Below are positions 30,352-46,102 of a stretch of 64,000 nt of DNA, in pieces (the first letter of the stretch is position 1; each line of letters begins with the position of its first letter). The DNA lies in contig JABGQM010000024.1 of assembly GCA_018648805.1 (NCBI GenBank), positions 1,065 through 65,064 of the forward strand, given 5' to 3'. This DNA comes from Verrucomicrobiota bacterium. GTDB lineage: Bacteria > Verrucomicrobiota > Kiritimatiellia > UBA8416 > JABMPJ01. A program made the translations under genes and the position numbers. The notes beneath the pieces are model-generated. The model saw nothing but the letters and a program-made list of their open reading frames with translations, searched no databases and had not been told where the DNA came from.

Positions 30352-30509
30352 GGCCTCGCGCTTGGCAAGCGCGGGCTACAGGAAACCCATCCAGCCTCCC
30401 CGCATCACTTCTCCGCCATGTAGCCCGCGCTCGCCGAGCGCGAGGCAAGATGCTCGATGGCATTACTCCCAATGAAACCAGCCACGCTCTCGCCGAGAGC
30501 GGGCTACAG
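30352..30509. repeat. REP cluster flanking RAYT (upstream side)
   Basis: ggcctcgcgcttggcaagcgcgggctacagg...tgtagcccgcgctcgccgagcgcgaggc...ctctcgccgagagcgggctacag. Confidence 0.8.
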
Positions 30510-31568
30510 AGAAAGTCTCTCCCGTGCCGACAGGTTGCCGGTCAACGCCGCGACGAGACCGCCGGGCAGCGCGCTCAACAGTGTCATGGCGCGCACCAGC
30601 ACGGCGAGGGTGAGGACCAGGCTCGGATTGCCCGCCGCGACGAAGTAGAGCAGGTAGAGCTCTTCCATCACACCGATTCCGCCGGGGGTGATGGGCAGGG
30701 CCGAGATGATCAGGATCAGCGGAACATGCAGGAAGTAGTGCGGCCAGGGCACATCCAGCCCGAGCGCCACGCCCAGCAGGAAGACGAAAGCGCTGCCGAG
30801 AAACTGGGCCAGCAGGGAGATGAGGAATGCCCGCACCAGTGTGCCCGGGGCCGCGCGGTAGCCATCCGCGGCGTCACCTGCTGCCGCGAGGTGTTTCGCG
30901 ATCGGCAGGCGGGCATAGAGCTTCTGGAGACCGCACAGGCGCCGCAGGCGTGGACTCAGCAACAACGCCAGAACGGCGCAGGCAGCGGTAAACACAACGG
31001 CCACGGATGGTGCGCTGACATGGAGTAGATCGCGGTCGCGCACTCCCATGGCCAGGAGAAGCGCCAACATGACGGCGGCCGTAAAGACCATGGCGCAGAC
31101 CCCCAGCAGGCGGTCCACAAAAACACTGACAAGCACGTGCGCCTTGTGCGTCGTCTTTCGCATCACGCAATAGGCCTTTACGACATCCCCGCCAACCATC
31201 CCGGGAATCACGGTATTGAAGAACTCACCCATGAACTGCAGCTTGACCATCTCGCCGATGGAGATGTGGACGCCCTGTACGGCAAGCAGGAGACGCCATC
31301 GCAACGCGGCGACCCCCAGCGAGGCGATCGAAACGGCGAATGCTGCCGCCAGCCACCGCGGGTCCGCGCCGGACATGCTGGAGAGGATTCCCGGGCAGCT
31401 AACCGTAAGGCCGGCCTCATCCGTCACCGGGTAGTCACGCCAGTGCACTTGCGAGATCACGAATCCCAGGAGGGCGAGCGCGATGATGATTTGCAGAGCC
31501 CGGAACAGCGGGTGGCGTGCCTTACGGGATGCGAAGTGCGCGAGGCGGGTCAGGGCATGCAAGGGCAT
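30504..31568 (-). CDS. Lysylphosphatidylglycerol-synthase-TM-like (UPF0104) flippase-like membrane protein
   Basis: 8 predicted TM helices, motif FMGEFFNTVIPGMVGGDVVKAY typical of LPG_synthase_TM family. Confidence 0.65.
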   Translation of the reverse strand: MPLHALTRLAHFASRKARHPLFRALQIIIALALLGFVISQVHWRDYPVTDEAGLTVSCPGILSSMSGADPRWLAAAFAVSIASLGVAALRWRLLLAVQGVHISIGEMVKLQFMGEFFNTVIPGMVGGDVVKAYCVMRKTTHKAHVLVSVFVDRLLGVCAMVFTAAVMLALLLAMGVRDRDLLHVSAPSVAVVFTAACAVLALLLSPRLRRLCGLQKLYARLPIAKHLAAAGDAADGYRAAPGTLVRAFLISLLAQFLGSAFVFLLGVALGLDVPWPHYFLHVPLILIISALPITPGGIGVMEELYLLYFVAAGNPSLVLTLAVLVRAMTLLSALPGGLVAALTGNLSARERLSL

Positions 31569-31577
31569 TGGCGCGCC

Positions 31578-32243
31578 TTACTCAAAATAGATGAAGGAGT
31601 AATCACCGCTGTAGCCGAAGTGCCCGTACAACCACACCCACTCTTCCGGCGTAAAGAAACACTCGCACGTGAGCTGCCAGTACAGGAGATTGGCCTTCTC
31701 TTTTTCGGACCGGTAGGACTCGACCACAAGGTAGCTGTTGGTGCGCGTGACGCGTTCGATCTCGGTGAGGGCCGACGCCAGTCCATCGATGGTGAGGTTG
31801 TGCAGGGTATTCAGGGAAATCACCAGGTCAAAGCTGTTGTCTTCGTAGGGCAGGTCGCGCGCGTTGCCCTCATCCAGAAAGGGTCGGACCTCTTCTTTGG
31901 CGTGCTCGATGGCGTAGGGCGAGACGTCCAGCCCGCGGATCTCGATGCCGGGCGCTGCCACCTGGAGTTCGTACAGCAGGTGCGCCTTGCCACAGCCGAC
32001 ATCCAGTACGCGGCTGCCCTCGCGCAGACCATAGTGTTCGATCAACGCCTTGGCGATCGGGGCCCACCGCCCATCGTACGTGTACCCGCCATACCCGTGG
32101 CGGCGGTCACCGTCCCAGTAGTCGCGACCGAACTGCTTGGCCACGGCGGCGCACGCCGCCTTGTCGTGTTCGGCGACGCGTTCGAGATAGTTTCGCTGTG
32201 TGCTTGTGTGTAGCGGCGCAAGAAAGTCTACGTATTCCATCAC
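31578..32243 (-). CDS. Class I SAM-dependent methyltransferase
   Basis: Motif I VLDVGCGKAHLL, motif II/post-I DLVISLNTLHNL. Confidence 0.75.
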   Translation of the reverse strand: MMEYVDFLAPLHTSTQRNYLERVAEHDKAACAAVAKQFGRDYWDGDRRHGYGGYTYDGRWAPIAKALIEHYGLREGSRVLDVGCGKAHLLYELQVAAPGIEIRGLDVSPYAIEHAKEEVRPFLDEGNARDLPYEDNSFDLVISLNTLHNLTIDGLASALTEIERVTRTNSYLVVESYRSEKEKANLLYWQLTCECFFTPEEWVWLYGHFGYSGDYSFIYFE

Positions 32244-32278
32244 TCTTCTCCTGGTTGTGCCTCTGATCTCCCGGGGTG

Positions 32279-32347
32279 GCCTCGCTCTCGGCGAGAGCGG
32301 GCTACAGGGAGGTGCATCATGTAGCCCGCGCTCGCCGAGCGCGAGGC
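32279..32347. repeat. Intergenic REP pair
   Basis: ggcctcgctctcggcgagagcgggctacaggg...tgtagcccgcgctcgccgagcgcgaggcc. Confidence 0.85.
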
Positions 32348-32372
32348 CATTCCTGATAGCCCAAAATCATCA

Positions 32373-33452
32373 TCAAACAAAATCCATGTGCTCCTGGTCG
32401 GCCTCGAAGAAGTCGATCAGCGCAAGGTTCTTTCCGTGGGAGACGCAGTGGTGGCGACACTCCCGGCTTGGGTCCAGGTTCTGCAGCCGCTCGCGCAGCT
32501 CTGTGCTGGACCACAGGTCCGCGAAGCTGCGCTCGCGAATCGACCCCAGCAGCCCATCTGTCGTGTAGGCTTTGTCCTGGCAGGTGTAGACATTCTGGTC
32601 GGCGGCGATGATCGTCAGGCAGCGCGTCATGGGGCACCACGTGTACTCCCGCACGTAATTTTCGCGCATCGAGTCGGGGAAGTGGACCTTATCGATGACC
32701 GAGAAGTGCTCGTTGGCCAGCGTGGTCTCTGCCTCCCTGATCTGCGCCTTGACCTCGTCGTAGAATGCGGCCATGTAACGGCGATTCTCCTCCGGTTCGG
32801 TCGACGTGACCACTCCGGATACCTTGACGTGATCGACGCCGATCTCCCGGGCCATTTCCAGGAAGTGGAGCACCTGGGCGCTGTTCTCCTGCGTCACGAT
32901 AAAGTTCACCCCCAGCACGCACGTGCGGCCGGGCATGGCCGCGAAAGCCCGCATGTTGTTGCAGACGCGATCGAATTCCCCGAGCCCCACCGAGCGTACG
33001 CGTGCATAGGATTCGGGGTCGACTGCACCGATCGACACGCGGACCCACGTGGCGCGTTGCGCCAGCAGCTCGGCGGCCTCGCCGTCGAGCCGGGCGCCGT
33101 TGGTCAGCATGGCAACCTTGATTCCGCCGTCCATCAAAGCGTTCGCCGTCTCCACGATGTGCGGATAGCAGAGCGGCTCACCGCCCCCGCTGAACGTCAC
33201 TGCGCGCACGCCCATGTCAACCAGGTCGGCCACAATCTCGCGCATCTTGGCCGGTGGGATCTGGTCGCGCTCCTGCATGTGCTCGCCAAGCTGGAGGTCC
33301 GGGTTGCGGTAGCAGCAGTAGGCGCAGTTGTGATTGCACCGGTTGGTCGGCTTGAGCCGTATATGGATCGGCGGGGGGATCTCCTTTGCCGCGATCTTTT
33401 GGAGTCGGTCCGGGAAATGAAAAATCTTACTGCTGGAATAGACATTACCCAT
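32373..33452 (-). CDS. Radical SAM / SPASM-type enzyme
   Basis: CNHNCAYCC (CxxxCxxC), GGGEPL; C-terminal Cys cluster CPMTRC...CQDK...CRHHC. Confidence 0.85.
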   Translation of the reverse strand: MGNVYSSSKIFHFPDRLQKIAAKEIPPPIHIRLKPTNRCNHNCAYCCYRNPDLQLGEHMQERDQIPPAKMREIVADLVDMGVRAVTFSGGGEPLCYPHIVETANALMDGGIKVAMLTNGARLDGEAAELLAQRATWVRVSIGAVDPESYARVRSVGLGEFDRVCNNMRAFAAMPGRTCVLGVNFIVTQENSAQVLHFLEMAREIGVDHVKVSGVVTSTEPEENRRYMAAFYDEVKAQIREAETTLANEHFSVIDKVHFPDSMRENYVREYTWCPMTRCLTIIAADQNVYTCQDKAYTTDGLLGSIRERSFADLWSSTELRERLQNLDPSRECRHHCVSHGKNLALIDFFEADQEHMDFV

Positions 33453-34362
33453 GATTCAGGATCCTCCCGGCGATATCGCCTGCCGTCAATCCGTAGGCTG
33501 CCCGCAGGTACGCCTGGCTACCGGCCTCGCACGCGTAGGCGTCGGGCAGAGCGAACCGTAACATCCGCACGCCGGCACCGGCCGCCAGGATGGTGTCGCC
33601 CACCGCGCTGCCCAGCCCGCCCCGTGCCACATGCTCTTCGATGGTCGCGATCGTTCCACAACGGCGCGCGACGTCGAGAACCAGCTCCTCATCCAGCGGC
33701 TTCACGGTGTGCATGCTGATGACTTCCGGTTCGAGTCCACTTTCGGCGAGAATCTCGGCGGCGGCGACGGCCGTCGGCAGCATGCTGCCGGACGCGATCA
33801 ACGCCACGCCGCGCCCCTCGCGCAAGCGGATGCCGCGGCCAATGCGGAAATCGGCGGGCTCGTCTTGATGCACGACCGGTTCGCCGCTCTTGCCCAGCCT
33901 GAGGTAGCAGGGACCCGGTAGCGACATGATCTCCCTGGTGGCGGCGCCGGCCTCTACCGGATCGCCCGGGCAGACAACGGTCATGTTGGGCAGAGCGCTC
34001 AGCACCGCGACGTCTTCGATCGTGTGATGGGTCACCCCGGCCGGTCCGTAGGTCAGCCCGGCCCCGACCCCGACGATCGTCACAGGCAGATTGGCGTAGC
34101 AGAGATCGACACGAATCTGCTCAAAGCAGCGGAAGGTCACAAAGGGGGCAATTCCGTAGACGAATACCCGTTTACCGGCCACGGCCAGTCCGGCGGCCAT
34201 GCCGACCATGGCGGCCTCGCAGAGGCCCGTGTTGAGGTAACGGTCACGGAACGTCTCCTGAAAATCGTCGAAGACGTGGAAACCCGTATCGCCCACCAAG
34301 AGATAGACGGAAGGATCCTGCTCCATGCTACGCGTCAGTTCTTTCAGAAACGCCTGTCTCAT
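33445..34362 (-). CDS. Transketolase, C-terminal (pyrimidine-binding) subunit of split transketolase
   Basis: ...FHVFDDFQETFRDRYLNTGLCEAAMVGMAAGLA..., typical TK C-terminal half; overlaps N-subunit gene. Confidence 0.85.
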   Translation of the reverse strand: MRQAFLKELTRSMEQDPSVYLLVGDTGFHVFDDFQETFRDRYLNTGLCEAAMVGMAAGLAVAGKRVFVYGIAPFVTFRCFEQIRVDLCYANLPVTIVGVGAGLTYGPAGVTHHTIEDVAVLSALPNMTVVCPGDPVEAGAATREIMSLPGPCYLRLGKSGEPVVHQDEPADFRIGRGIRLREGRGVALIASGSMLPTAVAAAEILAESGLEPEVISMHTVKPLDEELVLDVARRCGTIATIEEHVARGGLGSAVGDTILAAGAGVRMLRFALPDAYACEAGSQAYLRAAYGLTAGDIAGRILNHG

Positions 34363-35171
34363 GGGGTCTCCCCATCAATCTCACTCACAAACGCGTCCAC
34401 CTTATCTTCGGGTACGGAGAAGTAGTGCCACCCCAGCCTGTCTTCCATTTCGGCGACGCCCTTGCCCAGCACCGTCCGTGCGATCAGAACCGAGGGCTTG
34501 CCCGGCTCAAAGGGCGTCCGGGCGAAGGTCTCCGAGAGCTGCGTCAGGTCGTGTCCGTCGACCTCGGCCGTCGCCCAGCCAAAAGCGTCAAACCGGCGCG
34601 CCAGTGTCTCAACAGGCTGGATCTCCCCCACGCGGCCGTAGCCCTGCAAGTCGTTGGCGTCGATCACCGCCGTAATGGAGTCGAGCCCCAGGCGTGCTGC
34701 CTGGATCGCGGCTTCCCACACGGTTCCCTCCTGCAGCTCGCCGTCCCCCATCAGGACGAAGAAGCGGTGCGTCTCGTCGTCGTGGGCGGCGGCCAGAGCC
34801 ATGCCCACGGTAAGCGCCAGTCCGTGTCCCAGTGAACCGGTCGAGAGCTCCACCCCCGGGACCAAGCCGGCGCAGGGGTGGCCCATCAACGGGCTGCCGT
34901 CGGCCAGGAACTGCGTGAGGGTCGATCGATCGATGAACCCCTTCTGCGCCAACGTCGCGTAGAGGGCCGCCGCCGCGTGGCCCTTGCTGAGAATGAAGCG
35001 GTCCCGCGCGGGATCGTCGGGGGAGGGCAGATGCATCCGGTCGAAGTAGAGCGCGGTCAGGATGTCGACGGCCGACATCGCCGATCCCACGTTCGATCCC
35101 CGGCGATGCATGCGCACCACGTCTTTCCGAATCTCACGGGCTATGGAATCGAGTGTCATGTCAGTCACCAC
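34359..35171 (-). CDS. Transketolase, N-terminal (TPP-binding) subunit
   Basis: SKGHAAAALYA, GSLGHGL, MGDGELQEG TPP-binding motif. Confidence 0.85.
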   Translation of the reverse strand: MVTDMTLDSIAREIRKDVVRMHRRGSNVGSAMSAVDILTALYFDRMHLPSPDDPARDRFILSKGHAAAALYATLAQKGFIDRSTLTQFLADGSPLMGHPCAGLVPGVELSTGSLGHGLALTVGMALAAAHDDETHRFFVLMGDGELQEGTVWEAAIQAARLGLDSITAVIDANDLQGYGRVGEIQPVETLARRFDAFGWATAEVDGHDLTQLSETFARTPFEPGKPSVLIARTVLGKGVAEMEDRLGWHYFSVPEDKVDAFVSEIDGETP

Positions 35172-35204
35172 CCAACCTGTGCTGTGGTATGCGGTTTGTG
35201 CAAC

Positions 35205-35324: not shown

Positions 35325-36386
35325 CTAAATAAAATCATCATGATCCATCGGATTCTTGAGGCGGTCGAGGTAGCAGTTGCATTCGTCCATGCGGCAGATG
35401 TCGCGGCATTCCTTTGCGATGTCGAGGTCGTGGTCGATGAAATCCAGGACGGCCTGCCGTCGCGGCCCACGCCAGATGGCCCCCAGACTCTCTTCGCGCG
35501 CATTGCCCGTCAGGAACCGGGGGTCTCCGTCGAACACGTTACATTCGCACACGTTGCCATTGGCCGAGACGAAACTGATAAAATGCGTGCCGTGGCATTT
35601 CTCGTACCGCTTTTCGCTGTTCACCCGATCGATCGACCGGGCACGGTAAATGACCTTGAACGACTCGTCCTGCAGGGCTTCCAGTGCGTCCTCAAGATGC
35701 GCTTGCGCGGCATAATCCGGCTTCAATTGACACTCGCTCAGCGGATGCTGTGAAAAGGGCTTCACGCTAAAATAGTCCACGCCTACCGCTTTCAGGCGAC
35801 GCGCGAAGTCGACCAGTTCTCCTGCATTTTCGTCGAGCAGCACGAGCTGAACACCGATCACGACACCCAGTTTGCGGCTTCGCTTGCGTTCAACCGCCCG
35901 CTCAAGGTTCGTCATCACTTGGTCGAAGGCGGCTTCGGGGACACGGTGCACGGCGGCATAGTTGGCGGCATCGCACCCGTTGATCGAGAAGCGAATCCAT
36001 TTCAGTCCGTCGATCAGCGGCAACTTGGCGTCGTCAAGCGGGTAGCCATTCGTCGTGACCGAGGTACTCATCTTGGCTGATGCGTGCGAAATGATCTCCA
36101 ACGCGTCGGTGTGCAGAAGTGATTCCCCGTGCCCGGCGAACATGACCGCGCGGTTGCCGAGGCCGTGCAGCTCGTCGATGATGCGCTTCGCGTCGGCCGT
36201 CTCGATATCGTCATGCGTCTTGTTGACAAGGTAATCAACGCCGCAGAAAACGCAGCGGCAATTGCAGCGTGTCGACAGCGCCATCTCCGTATAGAGCGGG
36301 CCACGCGACTGTCCGTGCTCGAGCCAGTGGGCCACCTCGCCGGGATGGAACATTAGACGTTGCATATCGAAATTGCTGTCGTACAT
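35325..36386 (-). CDS. Radical SAM / SPASM-type enzyme
   Basis: CNCRCVFCG; C-terminal CxxC/CxC cluster (CHGTHF...CECNVF...CRDICRMDECNC). Confidence 0.85.
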   Translation of the reverse strand: MYDSNFDMQRLMFHPGEVAHWLEHGQSRGPLYTEMALSTRCNCRCVFCGVDYLVNKTHDDIETADAKRIIDELHGLGNRAVMFAGHGESLLHTDALEIISHASAKMSTSVTTNGYPLDDAKLPLIDGLKWIRFSINGCDAANYAAVHRVPEAAFDQVMTNLERAVERKRSRKLGVVIGVQLVLLDENAGELVDFARRLKAVGVDYFSVKPFSQHPLSECQLKPDYAAQAHLEDALEALQDESFKVIYRARSIDRVNSEKRYEKCHGTHFISFVSANGNVCECNVFDGDPRFLTGNAREESLGAIWRGPRRQAVLDFIDHDLDIAKECRDICRMDECNCYLDRLKNPMDHDDFI

Positions 36387-38188: not shown

Positions 38189-38243
38189 GTCTGACAAACA
38201 CATAGTCTAGTTTCTGCCACGGAAAGGGCCTGCCATCGCGCTC

Positions 38244-38337: not shown

Positions 38338-38640
38338 CCATGAACAGTCCTTATACACAACAAGAGACAGTCTAACATCCATGGCGCTTGAATAGGCACA
38401 CTTTTTTCCAGCAAACTTGTCTGAGGGCGCATCTACGATCTGTTGCATAGAGAGGCGCAGTAGGCACATATCTCCGAGATGTGCCCATGGTGAGGGAGTG
38501 CGTCTCGGAGATACGCACGTACAGTCCACTACTTCGCCATGTGCACCACATCACTCATGGCACATTGCACTATTGCGGTCGGAGTGCCTCTGCGGCTAGA
38601 CTATCCATTCGCCGCTTTGTTGAAAGGACTGAACAACACT

Positions 38641-39765: not shown

Positions 39766-40493
39766 CTGACACCCACCCTATACAAGCCAACACACTATCG
39801 GTCGCTGTCCCGGCGCGGGACGAGGAAGCCAACCTTGAAGAGGCCGTGGCCGTGATGATTCCGGTCATCGAGCGCCATTTCAGCGACTACGAGATCTTCA
39901 TCTACGATGACGGCAGCTCGGACCGCACCGGTGAGATTGCCGAGCAGCTGGCCGCACAATACGAGCATGTCAGCGCGTTCCACAACCGGCCCTCAATCGG
40001 ACTGGGCGGTGTCGTTCGCGAAGGGCTTAAGCGGGCCGGCATGGAGTATTTCATGTATATTGACGGCAAAGCGGCCACAACAGCCGCGGCCCTCGATCTG
40101 ATCTTCGCGGCACGCACGGAGGCCGATCTCGTCGTGCCGTATATGGCCAACCGTGGGGAACGCTCCCTGGGACGGCGTGTGGTCTCCCGGCTGTTCGTGG
40201 CGATCCTCAACACCACGTTCAGACTCGACCTGCAGTACTACAACCACCTCCTGCTGTGCCGCACGGAAGTCGCCCGGCGCGCGAACGTGCGGACCGCGTC
40301 CTACGCCTTCCAGGCGGAACGCACCATCAAGCTGATCAAGTCGGGTTGCAGCTACGTGCAGGTTGGTGTCGAGGATCGCTACGACCTTCCCGGGCGGCGA
40401 ACCAAGGCCTTCCATCTGCGCAACGTGCTGGGCGTGGCCGCTTTCTATATTCACGTCCTGCGGGATGTGCGTGCCATGCGAGGGCGTCAATGA
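39762..40493 (+). CDS. GT2 glycosyltransferase, DPM1-like (polyprenol-phosphate sugar synthase type), paralog A
   Basis: LSVAVPARDEEANLE, IFIYDDGSSDRTGEIA, DLVVPY; GTG start overlaps degT stop. Confidence 0.8.
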   Translation: MTDTHPIQANTLSVAVPARDEEANLEEAVAVMIPVIERHFSDYEIFIYDDGSSDRTGEIAEQLAAQYEHVSAFHNRPSIGLGGVVREGLKRAGMEYFMYIDGKAATTAAALDLIFAARTEADLVVPYMANRGERSLGRRVVSRLFVAILNTTFRLDLQYYNHLLLCRTEVARRANVRTASYAFQAERTIKLIKSGCSYVQVGVEDRYDLPGRRTKAFHLRNVLGVAAFYIHVLRDVRAMRGRQ

Positions 40494-41875
40494 AACGGGT
40501 CCTGCTCCTTAATCCCCCCGCCGATCCGCCTGTTTCGCGTGACTACTATTGCGGGCACTTCACCAAGGGGCGCTACTACTGGCCCCAGATTGACCTGCTG
40601 GTGATGAGCGGCATGCTGGCCGGGCACTACGAGGTGCAGGTGCTTGACGCCGTGGTCGAGGACCTTACCCCGGACGAGACCCACGCCCGGATCGCGGCGC
40701 TCAGCCCCGATGCCGTGGTAGCCGTAACGGCCTCGGTCTCGTGGTCGGGCGACATGGCATTCCTCTCCCGACTCAAAGAAACACACCCGTTGCCGATTCT
40801 CGTCAGCGGCGATTACCCCAGGGCAGAGCCGCAAGCCGTGCTGGCGCACCACCCGGCTATCGACGCGGTTGTCCTTGATTTCACGGAGAACGACGCCGTC
40901 GCATTCATCGGCGGGAAACGCGGGCCGGGGCTGCGCAATCTCTACACGCGCACGGATTCCGGTGAACCCCAGATTGAAGGCTCCAGCGTCTTCTGCTATC
41001 CGACACCGCGCCATGAGCTCTTTCCCCTCAAGCGTTACTACATGCCACAGAGCCTGCACCATCCGGCCGTCCCGATTCTGACGGACTTCGGATGCCCTTT
41101 CGCCTGCGACTTCTGTTTCATGGAGCGCGTCCAATACAGGCTGCGCGATATGGCCGATGTGACCGCCGAGCTGGCGGCACTACGCAAGCTGGGTGTCAGG
41201 GAACTGTTCCTGGCCGACCAGAGTTTCGGCTCGCATGCGACCCACGCCCGCGAGGTCTGTCAGACCATCCGCGATGTGGGACGGGGACGTTTCACGTGGG
41301 CGGCCTCCATGCGGGTCGATGCCGCTACCCCGGAACTCTTGCAGGTCATGCGGGATGCCGGCTGCCACACGCTGATGTTTGGTGTAGAGACGCCTTCGCA
41401 GGAAGTTCTGGATGCCCATCACAAGCGTACAACGGTAGACCAAATACAGGTCGCCTTTGCCCTCGCAAGGAAAATGGGATTCCGCAGGTTGGCCCATTTC
41501 ATTATCGGGCTGACCGGTGAAGATGAAGCGTCGTTGGAGCGTCTGGTCGAGTTTGCGATTGCGCTGGATCCCGATATTGCCTCTTTCAATGTCGCCGCCC
41601 CGGCATGGAATACCTCTTTTGGCGACCACATCCGGGACGAAAGCTGGCAGCTCGGTGAAGGCGTGGAGATCGCCGGACCCGACGCGGCACCGGTATGGGA
41701 ACAGCCCGGGTTGCCCATCCAGACGATTCTGCGGCTGCGGGACCAGGCCGTCCGCCGTTTCTACATGCGGCCCGGCTACATCCTGAAACAGCTCACGCGC
41801 GTCCGCTCAACTTACCAGTTGCGTACCCTCTTCCGTGAAGGCATCGGTATGCTTAGAGATCGCATGGGGAGCTAG
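40490..41875 (+). CDS. B12-binding radical SAM enzyme (probable C- or N-methyltransferase type)
   Basis: N-terminal B12-binding-like region then DFGCPFACDFC; ATGA overlap with upstream GT2. Confidence 0.8.
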   Translation: MKRVLLLNPPADPPVSRDYYCGHFTKGRYYWPQIDLLVMSGMLAGHYEVQVLDAVVEDLTPDETHARIAALSPDAVVAVTASVSWSGDMAFLSRLKETHPLPILVSGDYPRAEPQAVLAHHPAIDAVVLDFTENDAVAFIGGKRGPGLRNLYTRTDSGEPQIEGSSVFCYPTPRHELFPLKRYYMPQSLHHPAVPILTDFGCPFACDFCFMERVQYRLRDMADVTAELAALRKLGVRELFLADQSFGSHATHAREVCQTIRDVGRGRFTWAASMRVDAATPELLQVMRDAGCHTLMFGVETPSQEVLDAHHKRTTVDQIQVAFALARKMGFRRLAHFIIGLTGEDEASLERLVEFAIALDPDIASFNVAAPAWNTSFGDHIRDESWQLGEGVEIAGPDAAPVWEQPGLPIQTILRLRDQAVRRFYMRPGYILKQLTRVRSTYQLRTLFREGIGMLRDRMGS

Positions 41876-42122: not shown

Positions 42123-43154
42123 ATGACCATTGCCATCAATAGCCACGCCGAATGGCACCCGCTGAAGGACGTCGTCGTGGGAATCGCCACCGGCGCGCGC
42201 AACCCCACTGTCAAGGACGAGTCGCTGCACAGTATCTGCTACGGCGATCTTTCCGACGAGGCCTTTGCCGCCGCCAGCTCGGGGCCCTTTCCTGATCGCA
42301 TTATCAAGGAGACCAACGAGGATCTCGATGGCTTTGCCGACAAACTGCGCAACCTGGGCATCACGGTCCATCGCCCGCGTGAGGTGGACTTCGGTCAACT
42401 GTATAGTACCGATGACTGGACCGTTGACGGGTATTACGGTTACTGTCCGCGCGATACGGTGCTGACGGTCGCCAATGAGGCGATCGCCGCCCCCATGGTC
42501 CTGCGCCATCGCCAGAACGAAGCCGACCGGATTTTTGATGGGCTGTTCGACATGACATCGGCCCCCGTACCGCGCCTGCTCGACAGCATGTACGACCGCA
42601 GCCACCTGGGGAAGCCGACCCTGATGAACCATGAGCCCGCTTTTGACGCGGCGAACTGCCTGAAAATCGGTGAGGACATTCTCTACCTGGTCTCCAACAC
42701 CGGCAACCATGCCGGTGCCGACTGGCTCCAGGATCACCTCGGTAGCGGCTATCGCGTTCATCGCGTCGAGGATGTCTATGTCTTCATTCACATTGACTCC
42801 ACGTTCACGGTGCTGCGGCCCGGCCTGGTGCTGCTCTGCCCCGACCGCGTCAACGAAAAGAACCTGCCCGACCTGTTCCGCGGGTGGGACAAGATCTATG
42901 CGCCCGAGCCGGATCCGATCTCGTGCCTGGAAGGGTGGGGCGGCGCGTCGAAATGGATCGCGATGAACCTGCTCAGTCTGGGCCCCGACCTCGTGGCCGT
43001 TGAAGAGAACCAGGTCGCCTTGATGCGCGTCCTCGCCGGCTACGGCATCGACTCTCTGCCCATCCGCCTTCGGCACACGCGCACGCTCGGCGGCGGCCCA
43101 CACTGCACCACCCTTGACCTCGTGCGGGAAGGAGAACTGGAGGACTACCGGTGA
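42123..43154 (+). CDS. Amidinotransferase (glycine/inosamine-phosphate amidinotransferase superfamily, StrB1-like)
   Basis: Overall architecture plus C-terminal catalytic Cys motif RTLGGGPHCTTLDL (GGGxHCxT). Confidence 0.75.
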   Translation: MTIAINSHAEWHPLKDVVVGIATGARNPTVKDESLHSICYGDLSDEAFAAASSGPFPDRIIKETNEDLDGFADKLRNLGITVHRPREVDFGQLYSTDDWTVDGYYGYCPRDTVLTVANEAIAAPMVLRHRQNEADRIFDGLFDMTSAPVPRLLDSMYDRSHLGKPTLMNHEPAFDAANCLKIGEDILYLVSNTGNHAGADWLQDHLGSGYRVHRVEDVYVFIHIDSTFTVLRPGLVLLCPDRVNEKNLPDLFRGWDKIYAPEPDPISCLEGWGGASKWIAMNLLSLGPDLVAVEENQVALMRVLAGYGIDSLPIRLRHTRTLGGGPHCTTLDLVREGELEDYR

Positions 43155-44251
43155 CGAATACAGCCATCAGCTCCGATACCGGACCGGCCACCCCGCGCGC
43201 TATTTTCAACCAGGATCGCGTCTGTGTCGTCGATGCGGCGCTGATTGAGAAGCTGAAGACGGAGGCACTGCGCTCCCCGCTGGGGCGCTATCGGCTCTGC
43301 ATGCATCACTCCACCGGCGACCCCGCCCAGGACATGGTCGTCGCGCATCGGTGCGGCACCTACACGCAGCCGCACTGCCACCCTGCTGCGGCCACGTCGT
43401 TCGCGATGATCGAAGGGCGATTGGATGTCCTGATCTTCGACGACACCGGTGCCTTGACGCGGCGAGTTCGCATGGGACGTTTGGGTGACCGCTACGCCGA
43501 CACCGTCAGCCTGCATCTCTCCACCGGTGTAATACACATGGAAGACTGCCTGACCGAGACCGCCGTGTTCCACGAAACCCTGTCGGCGCCCAACCAGGAT
43601 GGCGGGGCGACGCGCTACGCCGCGTGGAGCCCCCCCGAGGACGACCCCGATCGCGCGGCGGCATTTCGCCGCCGGCTGGGACAGGAACGTCAGTCAAACG
43701 AGAGCGATGAAACGCTTCGACCGCGTGTCGCTGCCGACCAGCCTTCGGGGCCCGGTGCCTTTTTTAACCGGGATCGCGTCTGTGCGGTCGATGCGACGTT
43801 GATTGAAAGGCTGAAGACGGAGGCGTTGCGCTCCCCGCTCGGCCGCTTCCGGCTGTGCATGCATCACTCCACGAGTGACCCGATGCAGGACATGATTATC
43901 GTGCATCGGCGCGGCAACTACTCCCGGCCGCACTACCACCCGAACGCGGCCATGTCCTATACGATGATCGAAGGACGCATGGATATACTGCTTTTTGACG
44001 ATGCCGGCTCCGTGACGGAGCGCGTTCGCATGGGGTGTCACGGAGACCCCGAATCCGATGCCGTTGGCATCCGCCTCGCTGCCGGGACCGTCTACACGCC
44101 GGTTTGCCTCACGGAGGCCGCCGTCTTCCACGAAACTCTATCTGCGCCGAACCCGGATGGCGAAGCGACGCACTACGCCGCGTGGAGTCCCGCTGACGAT
44201 GAACCGGACCGCATCGCGGCATTTCACCGCGGGCTGGGCATTGGAGTGTAA
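43151..44251 (+). CDS. Tandem double WbuC-family cupin protein
   Basis: Two ~170-aa halves each with LRSPLGR(Y/F)RLCMHHST(G/S)DP(A/M)QDM..H..G.Y..PH.HP; DNA 43190-43690 and 43750-44240 ~85% identical. Confidence 0.7.
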   Translation: MTNTAISSDTGPATPRAIFNQDRVCVVDAALIEKLKTEALRSPLGRYRLCMHHSTGDPAQDMVVAHRCGTYTQPHCHPAAATSFAMIEGRLDVLIFDDTGALTRRVRMGRLGDRYADTVSLHLSTGVIHMEDCLTETAVFHETLSAPNQDGGATRYAAWSPPEDDPDRAAAFRRRLGQERQSNESDETLRPRVAADQPSGPGAFFNRDRVCAVDATLIERLKTEALRSPLGRFRLCMHHSTSDPMQDMIIVHRRGNYSRPHYHPNAAMSYTMIEGRMDILLFDDAGSVTERVRMGCHGDPESDAVGIRLAAGTVYTPVCLTEAAVFHETLSAPNPDGEATHYAAWSPADDEPDRIAAFHRGLGIGV

Positions 44252-44260
44252 ATCGACCGT

Positions 44261-44390
44261 GTAGCCCGCTCTCGCCGAGAGCGAGGCTCCCCGTGGATAT
44301 GGGCATTGGCGCCATCTCTGCCTCGCGCTCGGCGAGCGCGGGCTACATGATGCACGTTCCCTGTAGCCCGCGCTTGCCAAGCGCGAGGCC
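44261..44390. repeat. Intergenic REP cluster (3 units)
   Basis: tgtagcccgctctcgccgagagcgaggc...cctcgcgctcggcgagcgcgggctaca...ctgtagcccgcgcttgccaagcgcgaggcc. Confidence 0.85.
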
Positions 44391-44401
44391 ATCCCGGAAG
44401 A

Positions 44402-45166
44402 CTAGGGCAAAAGATTCGGGTCGGACCGATCTCTCACGGCTTTCCGTCCTCGAACGCGCAGATCCCAGAGCAGCCGGAACAGGCATGCGATCACGGCGAC
44501 ACTGTTCCGCCACCGATAAGATCGCGTGCGCCCACCATCTTCGAACGCATCCGTTACCCCTACCTCGCAATAGCTGCAGCCGCCACGAATCAGCTTGCAC
44601 AAGGCCTCGGCTTGAAAGGCATAGCTGCAGGTCCGAATCTCTATGCCGTTGAGATCCTCCCGCCTGTACAGGGGCAAGTGCATGTAGTACTTCAACTTCA
44701 GGCCGGCCACGAGCCCTATGGCGCTTGTCAGGCCATGCGAAATGAGTCGCCGTAGCACAGGCCGCTCGTGGCTATTCAGAGTATAGGGCACGATGATGTC
44801 GGCGCTTCCGGCCCGTTCCCATATCCGGCTCATCTCCTCGGCCGTGTTGCCGCCCTTGCCGTGGTAAAGCGTAACAAAGTCCATCCCGGCGCGGGTCAGC
44901 CCGCTCTTGAACGCGCCGCCAAGGTTGTGTGGCCGGTCGTGATGGATGACACTGATCCGCCCGTCCGCGGCGGCCAGCTCGTCCGCGATGCGGCCCGTGC
45001 CGTCCGTGCTGCCGTCATCGACGATAATGATCTCGTAGTCCCGGAAATGGCGTGGCGCGGCATCTGCCACGACACCGACCGAACGCCTGAGAAAACGCTC
45101 CTCGTTCAATGCCGGGATGATCACCGATACCGTTTTGCGGTGCGATGCACCGTCGTCCTGTTGCAT
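44402..45166 (-). CDS. GT2 glycosyltransferase, DPM1-like, paralog B
   Basis: VSVIIPALNEERFL, IIIVDDGSTDGTGRIA, DIIVPY. Confidence 0.8.
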   Translation of the reverse strand: MQQDDGASHRKTVSVIIPALNEERFLRRSVGVVADAAPRHFRDYEIIIVDDGSTDGTGRIADELAAADGRISVIHHDRPHNLGGAFKSGLTRAGMDFVTLYHGKGGNTAEEMSRIWERAGSADIIVPYTLNSHERPVLRRLISHGLTSAIGLVAGLKLKYYMHLPLYRREDLNGIEIRTCSYAFQAEALCKLIRGGCSYCEVGVTDAFEDGGRTRSYRWRNSVAVIACLFRLLWDLRVRGRKAVRDRSDPNLLP

Positions 45167-45172
45167 GGCTGC

Positions 45173-46102
45173 TCAGCTTTGCTTTGTTCCGGTTCCGTCG
45201 GTGGCGTGCTTGTTTTCGTTCCAGGTCATGCACCCGTCGCACAGCTCGATAGTGTGACGCTGATGGTTCAGGTGCAGCTCGCGTATGCGGGTCATCTCGG
45301 GTCCCTGCCATATCTCGGCCAGAGAGTGCGTGCGCGTGTCGCCCACCACGATGTCGCCATTCGTGTCGTTGCAGCACATGTGTACCTTGCCATCCGCGTA
45401 GATGTCCATCGATCCCCACAAGGTGATGCACGGAATGGCGTTGGCGGCCGCGCTCCTGGGCTCCAGGTCCCGGATGCGCCCCCAGCCGAACACACGTTGA
45501 ATCACGACTTGATCGTGCGACATCAGATGTTCGGTCCAGTGCCGCATAAAGTCCTCTTGCTCGCCCGCGTTCAGGTCCTGGGCCACCATCTGGATCCGTA
45601 TCTGTGTTTCCGGTCGCAGCGCGTCCCGCGCCCAAATGAAGTTCCGTAGGTTGCGATAGACGTCGTCAAAATTCAACCCGATGCGAATCGCTTCAAACGT
45701 AGCCTTGTCGAGCGAGTCCAGTGAGATGCCGACATAGTCGATCCCGGCACGAAGCAGCCCCTCGGCTCTCGCTTCGGTCAGCAAGCTGGCGTTTGTGGTG
45801 ACATGCACGCGCCGGATGCCGGCCTGCTTGAGGCGCGCGACCTTATCCTCGAGCCCGGAATCCGCCAGGGCCTCACCGTTCCCCCCCAGCGACACCCACC
45901 GGACGTGTTCGGCGTTCTCCGCAAGCTCGCCAAGCAGCTTGTCGAAGATCTCCGGCGGCAGCTTCTGACGGCTTCGCCTGTCCGGGTCGACGCCGCACAT
46001 GACACAGCGGGCATTGCAGAAATCGATCACCTCAATGCTGACATATTTCGGATAGCGCACCAGCTCGTGCAAGGGCAAGCCTTGCCGCCGTTCAACATGC
46101 AC
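45173..46102 (-). CDS. Radical SAM enzyme (SPASM/twitch-like C-terminus)
   Basis: CNARCVMC, SLGGNGEAL; C-terminal CCNDTNG...CDGC. Confidence 0.8.
   Translation of the reverse strand: MHVERRQGLPLHELVRYPKYVSIEVIDFCNARCVMCGVDPDRRSRQKLPPEIFDKLLGELAENAEHVRWVSLGGNGEALADSGLEDKVARLKQAGIRRVHVTTNASLLTEARAEGLLRAGIDYVGISLDSLDKATFEAIRIGLNFDDVYRNLRNFIWARDALRPETQIRIQMVAQDLNAGEQEDFMRHWTEHLMSHDQVVIQRVFGWGRIRDLEPRSAAANAIPCITLWGSMDIYADGKVHMCCNDTNGDIVVGDTRTHSLAEIWQGPEMTRIRELHLNHQRHTIELCDGCMTWNENKHATDGTGTKQS

What the first reader, a model, noticed from the sequence alone, without database searches (positions are those of the whole stretch)
30504..46102. Radical-SAM-dense sugar-tailoring cluster predicted to build an unusual lipid-linked donor sugar for the GT-C array
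A 15.6-kb run of co-oriented or overlapping genes encodes five radical-SAM enzymes (32373, 35325, 37322, 40490 which is B12-dependent, 45173), with a sixth at 54049. With them are a split transketolase, a DegT-family aminotransferase, an amidinotransferase, a double WbuC cupin, a SAM methyltransferase, a GT9 and two DPM1-like GT2 enzymes. A flippase-like LPG-synthase-TM protein sits at the upstream end. DPM1-type GT2 enzymes make polyprenol-P-monosaccharides, and GT-C enzymes such as the TMTC-like array consume exactly such donors. The coherent reading is a pathway that heavily modifies a sugar (C-methylation or epimerisation by radical SAM, amination, amidination, two-carbon extension), loads it on a polyprenol phosphate, flips it and hands it to the GT-C paralogs. 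I do not recognise this gene combination as any described O-antigen, aminoglycoside or protein-glycosylation cluster.
Basis: inference. Interest (0 to 1): 0.85.

Follow-up and report, generated by a model that had tools for sequence, protein, structure and literature searches.

The report
Guanidino-sugar pathway feeding GT-C glycosyltransferases
An uncultured Verrucomicrobia-type bacterium carries a conserved but undescribed gene cluster that most likely builds an unusual positively charged (guanidino) sugar, loads it on a membrane lipid carrier and passes it to a family of periplasmic glycosyltransferases, a new variant of a known kind of cell-surface glycosylation system.

Summary
Window 30504-46102 carries 15 real, tightly packed genes in three transcription units. 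These include five radical-SAM enzymes, a split transketolase, a DegT aminotransferase, a StrB1-type amidinotransferase (E 5e-89 to PDB 1BWD), a tandem WbuC cupin, a methyltransferase, a GT9-like protein, two short GT2s and a PF03706 flippase-like protein. None reaches an NCBIfam equivalog cutoff, and no paper in the searched library describes the combination.

Best reading: an Arn/PMT-like three-component glycosylation system whose donor is aminated and then amidinated. The radical-SAM roles, the sugar's identity, B12 dependence and the acceptor remain unknown. A radical-SAM-poor version with heptose-pathway-like genes exists in other lineages.

Verdict: new variant of a known kind; interest about 0.6.

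The parts
30504..31568 (-). PF03706 (LPG_synthase_TM / AglD2-YbhN, COG0392) flippase-like membrane protein, about 8 TM; last gene of the minus-strand operon
   Evidence: Pfam 142.7 bits; TIGR00374 81 bits; TM scan; orthologues 46-50% identical in L007, L010, L013, L015, L090
31578..32243 (-). class I SAM-dependent methyltransferase (UbiE/MetW-like); the most conserved companion of the amidinotransferase
   Evidence: Pfam Methyltransf_31/11/25; 51-71% identical orthologues in 12 of 18 clade loci
32373..33452 (-). radical SAM / SPASM enzyme, unknown reaction
   Evidence: PF04055 78.8 bits, PF13186 25.9 bits; CNHNCAYC motif; 59-62% identical orthologues in L007, L010, L013, L015
33445..34362 (-). 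split transketolase, pyrimidine-binding plus C-terminal half
   Evidence: PF02779 and PF02780; NF004559 176.6 bits; orthologues 49-63% identical
34359..35171 (-). split transketolase, ThDP-binding N-terminal half
   Evidence: PF00456 138 bits; GDG..N motif at residue 142; orthologues 42-68% identical
35325..36386 (-). radical SAM / SPASM enzyme, unknown reaction
   Evidence: PF04055 55.7 bits, PF13186 32.8 bits; CNCRCVFC motif; 60-63% identical orthologues in L007, L012, L015
36386..37315 (-). GT9-like protein (GT-B heptosyltransferase family; only the C-terminal nucleotide-sugar region aligns)
   Evidence: PF01075 33.2 bits over residues 216-287; PDB 3TOV E 1e-9 over 36 aa; orthologues 53-59% identical
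37322..38203 (-). short radical-SAM enzyme from a rare family; adjacent to the amidinotransferase in L007, L010, L012 and L090
   Evidence: PF04055 39.4 bits; CNLRCPFC motif; only 83 cluster representatives at E<=1e-30 among 1.84 billion
38539..39765 (+). DegT/DnrJ/EryC1-family sugar aminotransferase (probable start 38641)
   Evidence: PF01041 292.5 bits; nearest structures are GDP-perosamine synthases 3DR7/3BN1, E 8e-60; gene called as 374 aa in L001
39762..40493 (+). short soluble GT2, ArnC/DPM1/GtrB-like, with a non-canonical DxD position (D-G-K)
   Evidence: PF00535 54.7 bits; paralogue of 44402 at 42% identity; motif conserved in orthologues
40490..41875 (+). radical-SAM enzyme with an N-terminal B12-binding-like domain, AprD4/HpnJ-like
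   Evidence: PF04055 75 bits, PF02310 35.2 bits; HpnJ 135 bits against cutoff 577 and AprD4 family 82 bits against cutoff 500; PDB 6FD2 E 2e-19; no DxHxxG
42123..43154 (+). StrB1-type L-arginine amidinotransferase (distinct clade)
   Evidence: PDB 1BWD E 5e-89, SxtG, AGAT; invariant D175/H223/C328; clade-specific synteny
43151..44251 (+). tandem-duplicated WbuC-family cupin
   Evidence: TIGR04366 199.8 bits, two stretches; single-domain orthologues in L009, L013, L015
44402..45166 (-). short soluble GT2, ArnC/DPM1/GtrB-like (H-G-K at the DxD position)
   Evidence: PF00535 74.9 bits; ArnC and DPMS by sequence; the top 18 Foldseek hits of the model are all polyprenyl-P glycosyltransferases
45173..46102 (-). 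radical SAM / SPASM(twitch) enzyme; weak similarity to BtrN and BlsE
   Evidence: PF04055 65.4 bits, PF13186 54.6 bits; PDB 4M7T BtrN E 3e-7, BlsE E 1e-6; 45-48% identical orthologues in L005 and L013
1294..16699 (-). associated array: AlgX/SGNH-like protein, six PMT/TMTC-like GT-C proteins with C-terminal TPR domains, and one GDSL+TPR protein
   Evidence: Pfam; paralogy 44-77%; GT-C fold of 11050-12409; F-x-Y-DD motif
19552..21807 (-). NodU/CmcH-type carbamoyltransferase (possible further sugar tailoring; link untested)
   Evidence: PF02543 336 bits, PF16861 237 bits
48813..51170 (+). seventh GT-C/TPR paralogue
   Evidence: Pfam TPR plus weak PMT_2; 42-61% identical to the array members
51618..53697 (+). 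E1 alpha / E1 beta-like ThDP enzyme pair (beta subunit starts near 52640)
   Evidence: PF00676 205 bits; PF02779 and PF02780; TIGR03182 276 bits against cutoff 394
54049..55857 (+). sixth radical SAM/SPASM enzyme (54049-55140) and third GT2 paralogue (55141-55857): a second, smaller donor-sugar module

Best explanation
The cluster is the donor-sugar branch of a three-component, lipid-carrier-mediated extracytoplasmic glycosylation system of the Arn / Gtr / DPM1-PMT type. Shown by homology: the enzyme families. Inferred: the sequence of steps below. (1) A sugar precursor is made or drawn from central metabolism. The dedicated split transketolase probably supplies a ketose phosphate, and related loci activate it through GmhA-, HldE- and HAD-like enzymes, so a heptose-like higher-carbon sugar is possible. 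(2) A keto group is created on the sugar. In this anaerobe-type version, radical-SAM enzymes (AprD4-like dehydratase, BtrN-like dehydrogenase) would do this. Other lineages use SDR or Zn-ADH dehydrogenases and a PhyH dioxygenase instead. (3) The perosamine-synthase-like DegT enzyme converts the keto group to an amine. (4) The StrB1-type amidinotransferase moves the amidino group of L-arginine onto that amine, giving a guanidino sugar with a permanent positive charge. The methyltransferase and WbuC cupin tailor it further. (5) A short ArnC/DPM1-like GT2 puts the sugar on a polyprenyl phosphate. (6) The PF03706 protein flips the lipid-linked sugar. (7) The seven PMT/TMTC-like GT-C paralogues use it in the periplasm. 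Their TPR domains select different acceptors, most likely proteins, possibly envelope glycans. Neighbouring SGNH/GDSL enzymes modify the product. The order of steps 2-5 is unknown.
Against: There is no biochemical evidence for any step. The organism is an uncultured MAG. The GT2s lack the second Asp of the DxD motif (HGK, DGK, GDG) and have no TM helices, unlike ArnC and GtrB. The GT2 model is only moderate (pLDDT 65, with a poor C-terminal half). In this window the GT-C array is about 14 kb away, beyond mobile islets. The compact L007 cluster lacks GT2, DegT and GT-C within 10 kb. Most GT-C/TPR family members occur without this cluster. The roles of the radical-SAM enzymes, the GT9-like protein and the transketolase are not determined by homology: every NCBIfam score is far below cutoff. 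StrB1 acts on a phosphorylated cyclitol, not a sugar. PF03706 flippase activity on polyprenyl-P-sugars has never been shown.
Confidence: 0.5

Rival explanations
1. Cationic glycolipid pathway. The GT2 or GT9-like enzyme glycosylates a membrane glycerolipid, the headgroup is aminated and amidinated, and the PF03706 protein flips the finished guanidino-glycolipid to the outer leaflet to change surface charge. This would parallel MprF/Lys-PG, gpgSDF (GlcN-PG) and hexSDF. The GT-C proteins would not be the consumers.
For: All characterised or proposed PF03706 partners are cationic lipids (PMC12713373 and the papers listed). A guanidino group is cationic. The compact L007 cluster has PF03706 and a GT9-like protein but no GT2 or GT-C. 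GT9 enzymes act on lipid-anchored acceptors (established knowledge).
Against: Linkage to GT-C/TPR genes is strong and clade-specific, including overlapping reading frames. The GT2s resemble polyprenyl-P glycosyltransferases rather than the GT4 enzyme GpgS. Archaeal PF03706 proteins are linked to AglD-like GT2 and PMT/STT3-like enzymes (PMC5898192).
Confidence: 0.15
2. An ordinary LPS, O-antigen or capsule sugar pathway. The cluster makes a nucleotide-activated modified heptose-like sugar that cytoplasmic glycosyltransferases (the GT9-like protein and the GT2s) build into a polysaccharide. The GT-C/TPR genes are merely neighbours in a cell-envelope gene region.
For: GT9 is the heptosyltransferase family. 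Related loci carry GmhA-like, HldE-like, SDR dehydratase/epimerase and dTDP-sugar genes. WbuC and DegT are typical of O-antigen loci. AlgX/SGNH and GDSL enzymes usually act on polysaccharides.
Against: No Wzx/Wzy, Wzz, ABC exporter, initiating phosphoglycosyltransferase or O-antigen ligase was found among the window genes scanned with Pfam. The GT2s are short and ArnC/DPM1-like. The GT-C linkage is statistically strong. The GmhA/HldE-like proteins score far below equivalog cutoffs.
Confidence: 0.12
3. Composite locus. The radical SAM/SPASM enzymes are peptide or protein maturases (RiPP-like or cofactor maturases) unrelated to sugar chemistry, and only the DegT-GT2-amidinotransferase genes belong to a sugar pathway.
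For: SPASM enzymes most often modify peptides. The best NCBIfam hits are maturases (tungsten-cofactor maturase, PqqE, mycofactocin, NirJ), all far below cutoff.
Against: The radical-SAM genes are interleaved with the transketolase, GT9-like and methyltransferase genes, and their reading frames overlap those neighbours. They keep this arrangement in at least four lineages. I did not see a precursor-peptide, protease or exporter gene in the cluster, though ORFs shorter than about 70 aa were not systematically screened. Weak PDB similarities include the sugar- and cyclitol-modifying enzymes BtrN, BlsE, DesII and AprD4.
Confidence: 0.08
4. A secreted aminoglycoside- or aminocyclitol-like natural product cluster, in which StrB1-, StsC-, AprD4- and BtrN-like enzymes and a carbamoyltransferase make a guanidino-cyclitol antibiotic.
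For: There is StrB1 homology and AprD4 and BtrN similarities. DegT relatives include scyllo-inosose aminotransferases. A carbamoyltransferase lies nearby. APH-type kinase and HAD phosphatase genes occur in related loci, as I recall for the streptidine pathway.
Against: I found no cyclitol synthase (DHQS-like or inositol-phosphate synthase), resistance gene or exporter among the window genes scanned with Pfam. The amidinotransferase clade is distinct from the actinomycete StrB1 group (about 45% identity), and that group's loci share none of the other genes. The membrane GT2, flippase-like and GT-C context argues for a cell-bound product.
Confidence: 0.05

Closest known systems
Arn (PmrHFIJKLM) lipid A L-Ara4N modification pathway: ArnB, ArnC, ArnE/F, ArnT
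   Different: No ArnA or ArnD homologue was found in the cluster. The candidate flippase is PF03706, not the small ArnE/F proteins. The GT-C proteins carry TPR domains, are closer to PMTs, and come as seven paralogues. This cluster adds an amidinotransferase, a split transketolase, radical-SAM enzymes, a GT9-like protein and WbuC. The GT2s have no TM helices and a non-canonical DxD position.
Eukaryotic DPM1 / PMT / TMTC1-4 protein O-mannosylation (GT39 / GT105)
   Same: It pairs a short DPM1-like GT2 with a GT-C enzyme. The GT-C has a multi-spanning N-terminal membrane domain with helix boundaries compatible with the 11-TM TMTC layout and a C-terminal TPR domain. It carries a 'DD' motif in loop EL1 and a 'KE..T' motif (PMC7801869). 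The best structural matches are Pmt4 and Pmt2. Multiple paralogues suggest different acceptors.
   Different: This system is bacterial. The Pfam DUF1736 loop of TMTCs was not detected, and PMT_2 is mostly below threshold. The donor is presumably not mannose. The acceptors are unknown.
Archaeal AglD-like GT2 + UPF0104 (PF03706) + PMT/STT3-like neighbourhood (Makarova et al. 2015, PMC5898192)
   Same: It is the same three protein families in one neighbourhood, with the same predicted logic: lipid-phosphate sugar synthase, flippase, GT-C.
   Different: That module is only predicted, is archaeal, and has no sugar-tailoring enzymes. Here the three parts are bacterial, unfused and embedded in a 15-gene tailoring cluster.
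Streptidine branch of streptomycin biosynthesis (StrB1 amidinotransferase, StsC aminotransferase, kinase and phosphatase)
   Same: It uses the same chemistry: keto to amine (DegT family) to guanidine (StrB1 family, E 5e-89). Related loci also carry APH-type kinase and HAD phosphatase genes.
   Different: Identity to the StrB1 group is about 45%, and the window enzyme belongs to a separate clade with different neighbours. No cyclitol synthase was found among the scanned genes. The context is membrane glycosylation, not antibiotic production.
gpgSDF (GlcN-PG, P. aeruginosa) and hexSDF (C. difficile) cationic glycolipid operons
   Same: A stand-alone PF03706/COG0392 flippase-like protein is linked to a glycosyltransferase and to formation of an amino (cationic) sugar headgroup (PMC12713373).
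   Different: GpgS is a GT4 enzyme and the amine comes from de-N-acetylation. Those operons have no aminotransferase, amidinotransferase, GT-C, transketolase or radical-SAM enzymes.
Radical-SAM sugar and cyclitol tailoring enzymes AprD4 (apramycin), BtrN (butirosin), BlsE, DesII
   Same: These are the nearest solved relatives of three of the radical-SAM proteins. As I recall, AprD4 and BtrN generate keto groups on aminoglycoside intermediates without O2 or NAD, which is the step needed before transamination.
   Different: Similarity is weak (23-73 bits; NCBIfam AprD4 family 82 bits against cutoff 500). No orthology can be claimed.

Membership tests
Radical SAM superfamily (all six proteins) | PF04055 above the gathering score, and a CxxxCxxC cluster motif | tested here: met
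   39-79 bits against cutoff 29.5; one CxxxCxxC motif in each protein
SPASM/twitch subfamily (32373, 35325, 45173, 54049) | C-terminal auxiliary Fe-S domain: PF13186 above cutoff 21.5, with Cys-rich C-terminus | tested here: met
   25.9, 32.8, 54.6 and 51.7 bits; 4-7 Cys in the last 120 residues. The protein at 37322 has 6 C-terminal Cys but no PF13186 hit.
Cobalamin-dependent (class B) radical SAM (40490) | N-terminal B12-binding domain | tested here: met
   PF02310 35.2 bits against cutoff 32.1, a marginal pass
Cobalamin-dependent (class B) radical SAM (40490) | Actual cobalamin binding or use (DxHxxG ligand motif, or a biochemical demonstration) | tested here: inconclusive
   No DxHxxG motif. 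From memory, many class B enzymes lack it, and the nearest structure AprD4 is reported not to use cobalamin. All named subfamilies score far below cutoff (HpnJ 135 against 577, AprD4 82 against 500, PhpK 91 against 600).
StrB1/AGAT amidinotransferase family (42123) | Full-length homology to characterised amidinotransferases | tested here: met
   1BWD E 5e-89 over residues 5-343; SxtG E 2.5e-48; AGAT E 1e-47
StrB1/AGAT amidinotransferase family (42123) | Catalytic Asp-His-Cys triad | tested here: met
   D175, H223 and C328 are invariant in 35 sequences and present in the window protein. Their correspondence to StrB1 Asp179/His227/Cys332 is from memory.
StrB1/AGAT amidinotransferase family (42123) | Pfam PF02274 model match | tested here: not met
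   No Pfam hit at E<=0.01. Some relatives carry precomputed PF02274 hits. This reflects model sensitivity and does not count against homology.
Transketolase (33445 + 34359) | ThDP-binding, pyrimidine-binding and C-terminal domains, with the ThDP motif | tested here: met
   PF00456, PF02779 and PF02780; GDG-x28-N at residue 142. The NCBIfam equivalog cutoff is not reached (248 + 177 bits against 488), so substrate specificity is open.
Polyprenyl-phosphate glycosyltransferases (DPM1 / ArnC / GtrB type GT2) | GT-A fold closest to known members | tested here: met
   Foldseek top 18 hits are all ArnC, DPMS or GtrB, E 1e-12 to 1e-9, TM 0.53-0.65. Sequence hits to ArnC and DPMS span residues 9-191. 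Caveat: model pLDDT is 65.
Polyprenyl-phosphate glycosyltransferases (DPM1 / ArnC / GtrB type GT2) | Canonical DxD metal-binding motif | tested here: not met
   The position reads HGK, DGK and GDG in the three paralogues and DGK, DGQ and HAK in orthologues. The position was assigned by my own reading of the paralogue alignment and predicted strand order, not by an alignment to ArnC or DPMS.
Polyprenyl-phosphate glycosyltransferases (DPM1 / ArnC / GtrB type GT2) | Membrane anchoring by C-terminal TM helices (ArnC, GtrB, archaeal DPMS) | tested here: not met
   No TM segment was predicted; there is only a C-terminal helix at 215-239. From memory, human DPM1 also lacks a TM helix.
Polyprenyl-phosphate glycosyltransferases (DPM1 / ArnC / GtrB type GT2) | Transfer of a sugar to polyprenyl phosphate | not testable with these tools
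   Needs an enzyme assay
GT-C glycosyltransferases (PMT / ArnT / STT3 class) | GT-C membrane fold | tested here: met
GT-C glycosyltransferases (PMT / ArnT / STT3 class) | Acidic motif in the first extracytoplasmic loop | tested here: met
   F-x-Y-D33-D34 is invariant in the 7 paralogues. D33 is conserved at >=90% in 34 diverse homologues.
GT-C glycosyltransferases (PMT / ArnT / STT3 class) | Pfam PMT_2 above the gathering score | tested here: inconclusive
   26.9 bits (passes cutoff 26.1) for 14480. The others score 25.2, 24.8 and 20.0. A profile of the domain finds nothing in the PDB by sequence.
TMTC family (GT105) | N-terminal GT-C domain plus C-terminal TPR, with DD and KE..T motifs | tested here: met
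   TPR hits; motifs compared with PMC7801869
TMTC family (GT105) | DUF1736 (TM7-TM8 loop) Pfam signature | tested here: not met
   Not among the Pfam hits for any paralogue. These are TMTC-like in architecture but are not filed as TMTC members.
GT9 heptosyltransferases (36386) | Full-length match to the GT9 / heptosyltransferase models | tested here: not met
   PF01075 33 bits, but only residues 216-287 align. Heptosyltransferase I, II and III score 27-32 bits against cutoffs of 135-185. PDB 3TOV aligns over 36 aa.
PF03706 / COG0392 flippase-like family (30504) | Domain match and multi-TM topology | tested here: met
   142.7 bits against cutoff 33.4; 8 hydrophobic segments. Flippase activity cannot be tested here. 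GlcN-PG flippase scores 27 bits against cutoff 320 and MprF 21 against 600.
ADP-heptose pathway (GmhA / HldE / GmhB) in related loci | Equivalog-level match | tested here: not met
   In L008 the HldE-like protein scores 151 bits against 521 and has reversed domain order. The GmhA-like protein scores 72-78 against 209-276. The HAD and APH proteins have no NCBIfam hit. No such genes are in the window cluster.

The most novel reading that the evidence does not exclude
Bacteria of the PVC superphylum and a few other phyla decorate periplasmic or surface proteins (or envelope glycans) with a guanidinylated, transketolase-derived deoxy higher-carbon sugar. TMTC/PMT-like GT-C paralogues deliver it from polyprenyl phosphate. 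To my knowledge this would be the first guanidino sugar in a glycoconjugate rather than in an antibiotic. The pathway would exist in two interchangeable chemistries: radical-SAM enzymes in anaerobes, and NAD- or O2-dependent enzymes elsewhere.
Probability: 0.3. Interest if true: 0.8.

Novelty: new variant of a known kind. Interest (0 to 1): 0.6.

Why it matters
If the reading is right, it points to a new cationic sugar modification of the bacterial cell surface and gives a testable donor pathway. It would also give the very large, unstudied family of bacterial TPR-bearing GT-C proteins (more than 4,000 relatives, labelled only 'tetratricopeptide repeat protein') its first candidate substrate. 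It offers a natural experiment in which radical-SAM enzymes and oxygen- or NAD-dependent enzymes appear to replace each other in one pathway. Finally, it yields several uncharacterised radical-SAM families with a defined genomic context for enzymology. A guanidino sugar on the envelope could affect charge, resistance to antimicrobial peptides and adhesion in abundant but uncultured anaerobes.

Tried and rejected
1. Naming the enzymes with curated models.

2. Sequence-only assignment of the GT-C domain. Pfam PMT_2 and GtrII are mostly below threshold, and a seven-paralogue profile found nothing in the PDB. Structure prediction resolved this.

3. The afdb50 fold library was unavailable, so no comparison with TMTC AlphaFold models was possible.

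4. Literature searches for the gene combination, for guanidino sugars in polysaccharides, for PVC glycosylation with radical SAM, and for WbuC function found nothing relevant.

5. The promoter/terminator scan was uninformative: counts were at or below shuffle expectation. Rfam and tRNA scans were empty.

6. The exact-sequence look-up of DegT with the long ORF start failed, because the gene is called 34 codons shorter.

7. The canonical ADP-heptose pathway idea. The related-locus genes are only GmhA/HldE-like and are absent from the window cluster, so 'heptose' is kept only as a possibility.

8. The hopanoid HpnI/J/L analogy (GT2 + B12-domain rSAM + PF03706). HpnJ scores 135 bits against cutoff 577, and I saw no hopanoid-pathway domain among the window genes scanned. 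Rejected as membership and kept as a mechanistic analogy (ring contraction cannot be excluded).

9. Chance juxtaposition was rejected on synteny statistics.

Full report

Yes. The window is about 62% GC, so I filtered ORFs by third-position GC.

Pfam and NCBIfam give the following, by start coordinate and strand:
- 30504 (-): PF03706 LPG_synthase_TM
- 31578 (-): class I SAM methyltransferase
- 32373 (-): radical SAM/SPASM
- 33445 (-) and 34359 (-): transketolase C and N halves
- 35325 (-): radical SAM/SPASM
- 36386 (-): GT9-like, with only the last 70 residues aligning
- 37322 (-): short radical SAM
- 38539 (+): DegT aminotransferase
- 39762 (+): GT2
- 40490 (+): radical SAM with a B12-binding-like domain
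- 42123 (+): no Pfam or NCBIfam hit
- 43151 (+): two WbuC cupins fused in one protein
- 44402 (-): GT2
- 45173 (-): radical SAM/SPASM

All six radical-SAM proteins, counting 54049, have one CxxxCxxC motif. The transketolase N half has the GDG..N ThDP motif.

The protein at 42123 is a genuine amidinotransferase. It matches StrB1 (1BWD) at E 5e-89 over its full length, and also matches SxtG and AGAT. D175, H223 and C328 are invariant across 35 homologues.

The genes form three units: minus 38203->30504, plus 38539->44251, and minus 46102->44402. Six junctions overlap by 1-8 bp, which suggests translational coupling.

Corrections to the finding:
- The flippase-like gene is the last gene of its operon, not at the upstream end.
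- Cobalamin dependence of 40490 is unproven. The B12 domain barely passes threshold, there is no DxHxxG motif, and the nearest structure is AprD4.
- DegT probably starts at 38641.

**2. The surroundings**

Upstream, 1294-16699 (-) encodes an AlgX/SGNH-like protein, six 650-755-aa proteins with a multi-spanning N-terminal domain and C-terminal TPRs, and a GDSL+TPR protein. A seventh paralogue lies at 48813 (+). The seven are 42-77% identical to each other.

A NodU/CmcH-type carbamoyltransferase sits at 19552.

Downstream of 48813 come an E1 alpha/beta-like ThDP pair, the sixth radical SAM/SPASM enzyme and a third GT2 paralogue.

Lower-GC stretches (17-19.5 kb, 22-30.4 kb, 46.1-48.8 kb) carry PIN, BrnT, AbiEii-like, Schlafen/pAgo-associated, PDC-S01 and weak IS200-like genes. 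So roughly 55 kb of sugar-related genes are interrupted by small toxin-antitoxin and defence islets.

The source is an uncultured bacterium that NCBI names 'Verrucomicrobia bacterium'. P0121 and P0241 are 100% identical to window proteins.

**3. Comparative genomics**

The exact amidinotransferase occurs on metagenome contigs with the same gene order. Its family is large (2,355 hits).

A scan of one genome per species, followed by a BLAST matrix of window proteins against all fetched loci, shows a sharp split:
- Loci whose amidinotransferase is at least 59% identical to the window's also carry orthologues (42-81% identical) of the methyltransferase, both transketolase halves, the PF03706 protein, the GT9-like protein, three of the radical-SAM enzymes, DegT, GT2, the B12-domain enzyme and WbuC. 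These loci come from Kiritimatiellia, Victivallales, Pirellulaceae, Phycisphaerae, Planctomycetaceae, Binatia and Terriglobales.
- The 70 loci with StrB1-like enzymes at about 45% identity (Streptomyces, cyanobacteria, proteobacteria and others) carry none of them, apart from unrelated DegT genes.

GT-C/TPR membrane domains are present in 12 of the 18 clade loci and 0 of the 70 others (Fisher p 9e-11). After removing duplicate records this is about 10 of 14.

The linkage can be intimate:
- L009 (Kiritimatiellia) reads DegT-GT2-B12rSAM-Amid-WbuC-GT-C/TPR on one strand with no gaps.
- In L089 (Binatia) the GT-C/TPR gene overlaps the amidinotransferase gene by 4 bp.
- In L008 the order GT2-PF03706-GT-C/TPR is contiguous.

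Conversely, distant GT-C/TPR homologues occur in tandem arrays without any sugar genes. The GT-C family is therefore broader than this pathway.

**4. Two versions of the pathway**

The window, L007/L011, L010/L090 and L015 share the radical-SAM-rich form.

L008, L089 and L091 keep the amidinotransferase, split transketolase, methyltransferase (60% identical) and GT-C/TPR, and L008 also keeps GT2 and PF03706. They replace the radical-SAM and GT9-like genes with:
- a SIS isomerase;
- SDR epimerase/dehydratases;
- a PhyH dioxygenase;
- a HAD phosphatase;
- an APH-type kinase;
- a Zn-ADH;
- in L008 only, a kinase/nucleotidyltransferase.

By NCBIfam the SIS and kinase/nucleotidyltransferase proteins are closest to GmhA and HldE. 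They score far below the cutoffs, and the HldE-like domain order is reversed.

I read this as non-orthologous replacement of oxidoreductive and activation steps, and as a hint that the precursor is a transketolase-made ketose phosphate activated by a heptose-like route. Both points are inference.

**5. Structural tests of the two key claims**

The paralogues share an invariant F-x-Y-D-D motif after TM1 and a G-x-K-(E/Q)-x-M-x-(T/S) motif. These correspond to the 'DD' and 'KE(T/Q)xxT' motifs that PMC7801869 assigns to metal and Dol-P-Man binding in TMTCs. The TMTC-specific DUF1736 signature was not detected, so I describe these proteins as PMT/TMTC-like, not as TMTC members.

(b) GT2. By sequence, 44402 is closest to ArnC and Pyrococcus Dol-P-Man synthase over about 160-180 residues. 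A moderate model (pLDDT 65) has ArnC, DPMS and GtrB as its top 18 Foldseek hits.

Against a simple assignment:
- The three paralogues have no TM helices.
- The second Asp of the DxD motif is replaced (HGK, DGK, GDG). The change is conserved in orthologues, so it is a subfamily trait of unknown meaning.

**6. Most likely mechanism (confidence about 0.5)**

This is a three-component lipid-carrier glycosylation system whose donor is a specialised cationic sugar.
- Shown by homology: the enzyme families listed above, the GT-C fold and the genomic linkage.
- Inferred: a keto group is generated on the sugar, here plausibly by the AprD4-like and BtrN-like radical-SAM enzymes.
- Inferred: the perosamine-synthase-like DegT (E 8e-60 to 3DR7) makes the amine.
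- Inferred: the StrB1-type enzyme converts the amine to a guanidine using arginine.
- Inferred: the methyltransferase and cupin tailor the sugar, and a GT2 loads it on polyprenyl phosphate.
- Inferred: the PF03706 protein flips it, and the GT-C/TPR paralogues transfer it to periplasmic acceptors chosen by their TPR domains.

The order of steps, the sugar skeleton, and the roles of the transketolase, the GT9-like protein and three radical-SAM enzymes are open. The short radical-SAM protein at 37322 belongs to a rare family: 83 representatives at E<=1e-30 among 1.84 billion.

**7. Rivals**

- A cationic guanidino-glycolipid flipped by PF03706, by analogy with gpgSDF, hexSDF and MprF (PMC12713373): confidence 0.15.
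- An ordinary LPS or capsule heptose-type pathway with only coincidental GT-C neighbours: 0.12.
- A composite locus in which the SPASM enzymes are peptide maturases: 0.08.
- A secreted aminoglycoside-like product: 0.05.

Evidence for and against each is in the rival entries.

**8. Comparison with what is known, and verdict**

The architecture belongs to a known kind: Arn, Gtr, DPM1-PMT/TMTC, and the archaeal AglD/UPF0104/PMT-like neighbourhood (PMC5898192).

The following appear to be new:
- the tailoring set, which combines a StrB1-clade amidinotransferase, a split transketolase, a methyltransferase and radical-SAM enzymes or their replacements;
- its conserved coupling to bacterial TPR-bearing GT-C paralogues across at least five phyla.

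I found no curated family or paper describing it.

I rate it a new variant of a known kind. Interest is 0.6. It is a well-founded and testable hypothesis about an undescribed surface modification, but it rests entirely on inference from uncultured genomes.

Noticed in passing
window 17026-18435, 22307-29120, 29682-30368, 46501-48710, 62314-63804: Lower-GC islets (about 57% against 62%) carry toxin-antitoxin and defence genes and interrupt the sugar locus. They include PADLOC PDC-S01 (306 bits), BrnT, two PIN proteins, a Schlafen AlbA_2/HATPase_c_4 protein matching a pAgo-associated model, DUF4062, a weak IS200-like Y1 transposase, a weak AbiEii/DUF6036-like nucleotidyltransferase with HTH proteins, and PDC-S27 (243 bits). 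L090 has a similar toxin-antitoxin islet splitting its cluster.
   Followed up: partly
window 43151-44251: The WbuC cupin gene is a head-to-tail fusion of two closely similar halves. Orthologues in L009, L013 and L015 are single domains of about 170-190 aa, so the duplication looks recent and lineage-specific.
   Followed up: partly
window 39762-40493, 44402-45166, 55141-55857: The three short GT2 paralogues have HGK, DGK and GDG where GT2 enzymes normally have the DxD metal-binding motif. Orthologues in other phyla keep DGK, DGQ or HAK. This may mean metal-independent catalysis or an unusual donor.
   Followed up: partly
window 48813-55857: A second, smaller module has the same logic as the main cluster: GT-C/TPR, an E1 alpha/beta-like ThDP enzyme pair (from memory reminiscent of sugar two-carbon branching enzymes such as AviB1/B2), a radical SAM/SPASM enzyme and a GT2. 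A nucleoside 2-deoxyribosyltransferase-like gene follows on the opposite strand (56130-56582). None of the related loci fetched here contains orthologues of the E1 pair.
   Followed up: partly
window 19552-21807: A 751-aa NodU/CmcH-type carbamoyltransferase with about 140 extra N-terminal residues lies between the GT-C array and the cluster. It may be a further sugar-tailoring step. A 54%-identical homologue lies near the StrB1-like gene in L080.
   Followed up: no
L006 1-9830 and 16157-21092; L090 1-10: Giant predicted surface proteins (2,000-3,400 aa, with Laminin_G_3, Calx-beta, Chlam_PMP, DUF2341 and beta-helix domains) flank the amidinotransferase in Lentisphaerae-type loci. They are speculative candidates for the glycosylation acceptors.
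   Followed up: no
L008, L089, L091 (whole loci): The radical-SAM-poor version of the pathway always includes a PhyH-family dioxygenase, an APH-type kinase and a small HAD-like protein between the transketolase and the methyltransferase. The kinase and phosphatase echo my recollection that StrB1 requires a phosphorylated substrate.
   Followed up: partly
L093 5171-12028; L094 7876-12097: Distant homologues of the GT-C/TPR proteins occur as tandem arrays of two or three genes with no sugar genes nearby. Tandem paralogy therefore seems to be a general habit of this large, uncharacterised family.
   Followed up: partly
window 58343-62187: A hybrid-cluster protein (prismane, 564 bits), a 4Fe-4S ferredoxin-domain protein and a Crp/Fnr-type regulator sit at the right-hand end of the window. 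This is consistent with an anaerobic lifestyle for the host.
   Followed up: no
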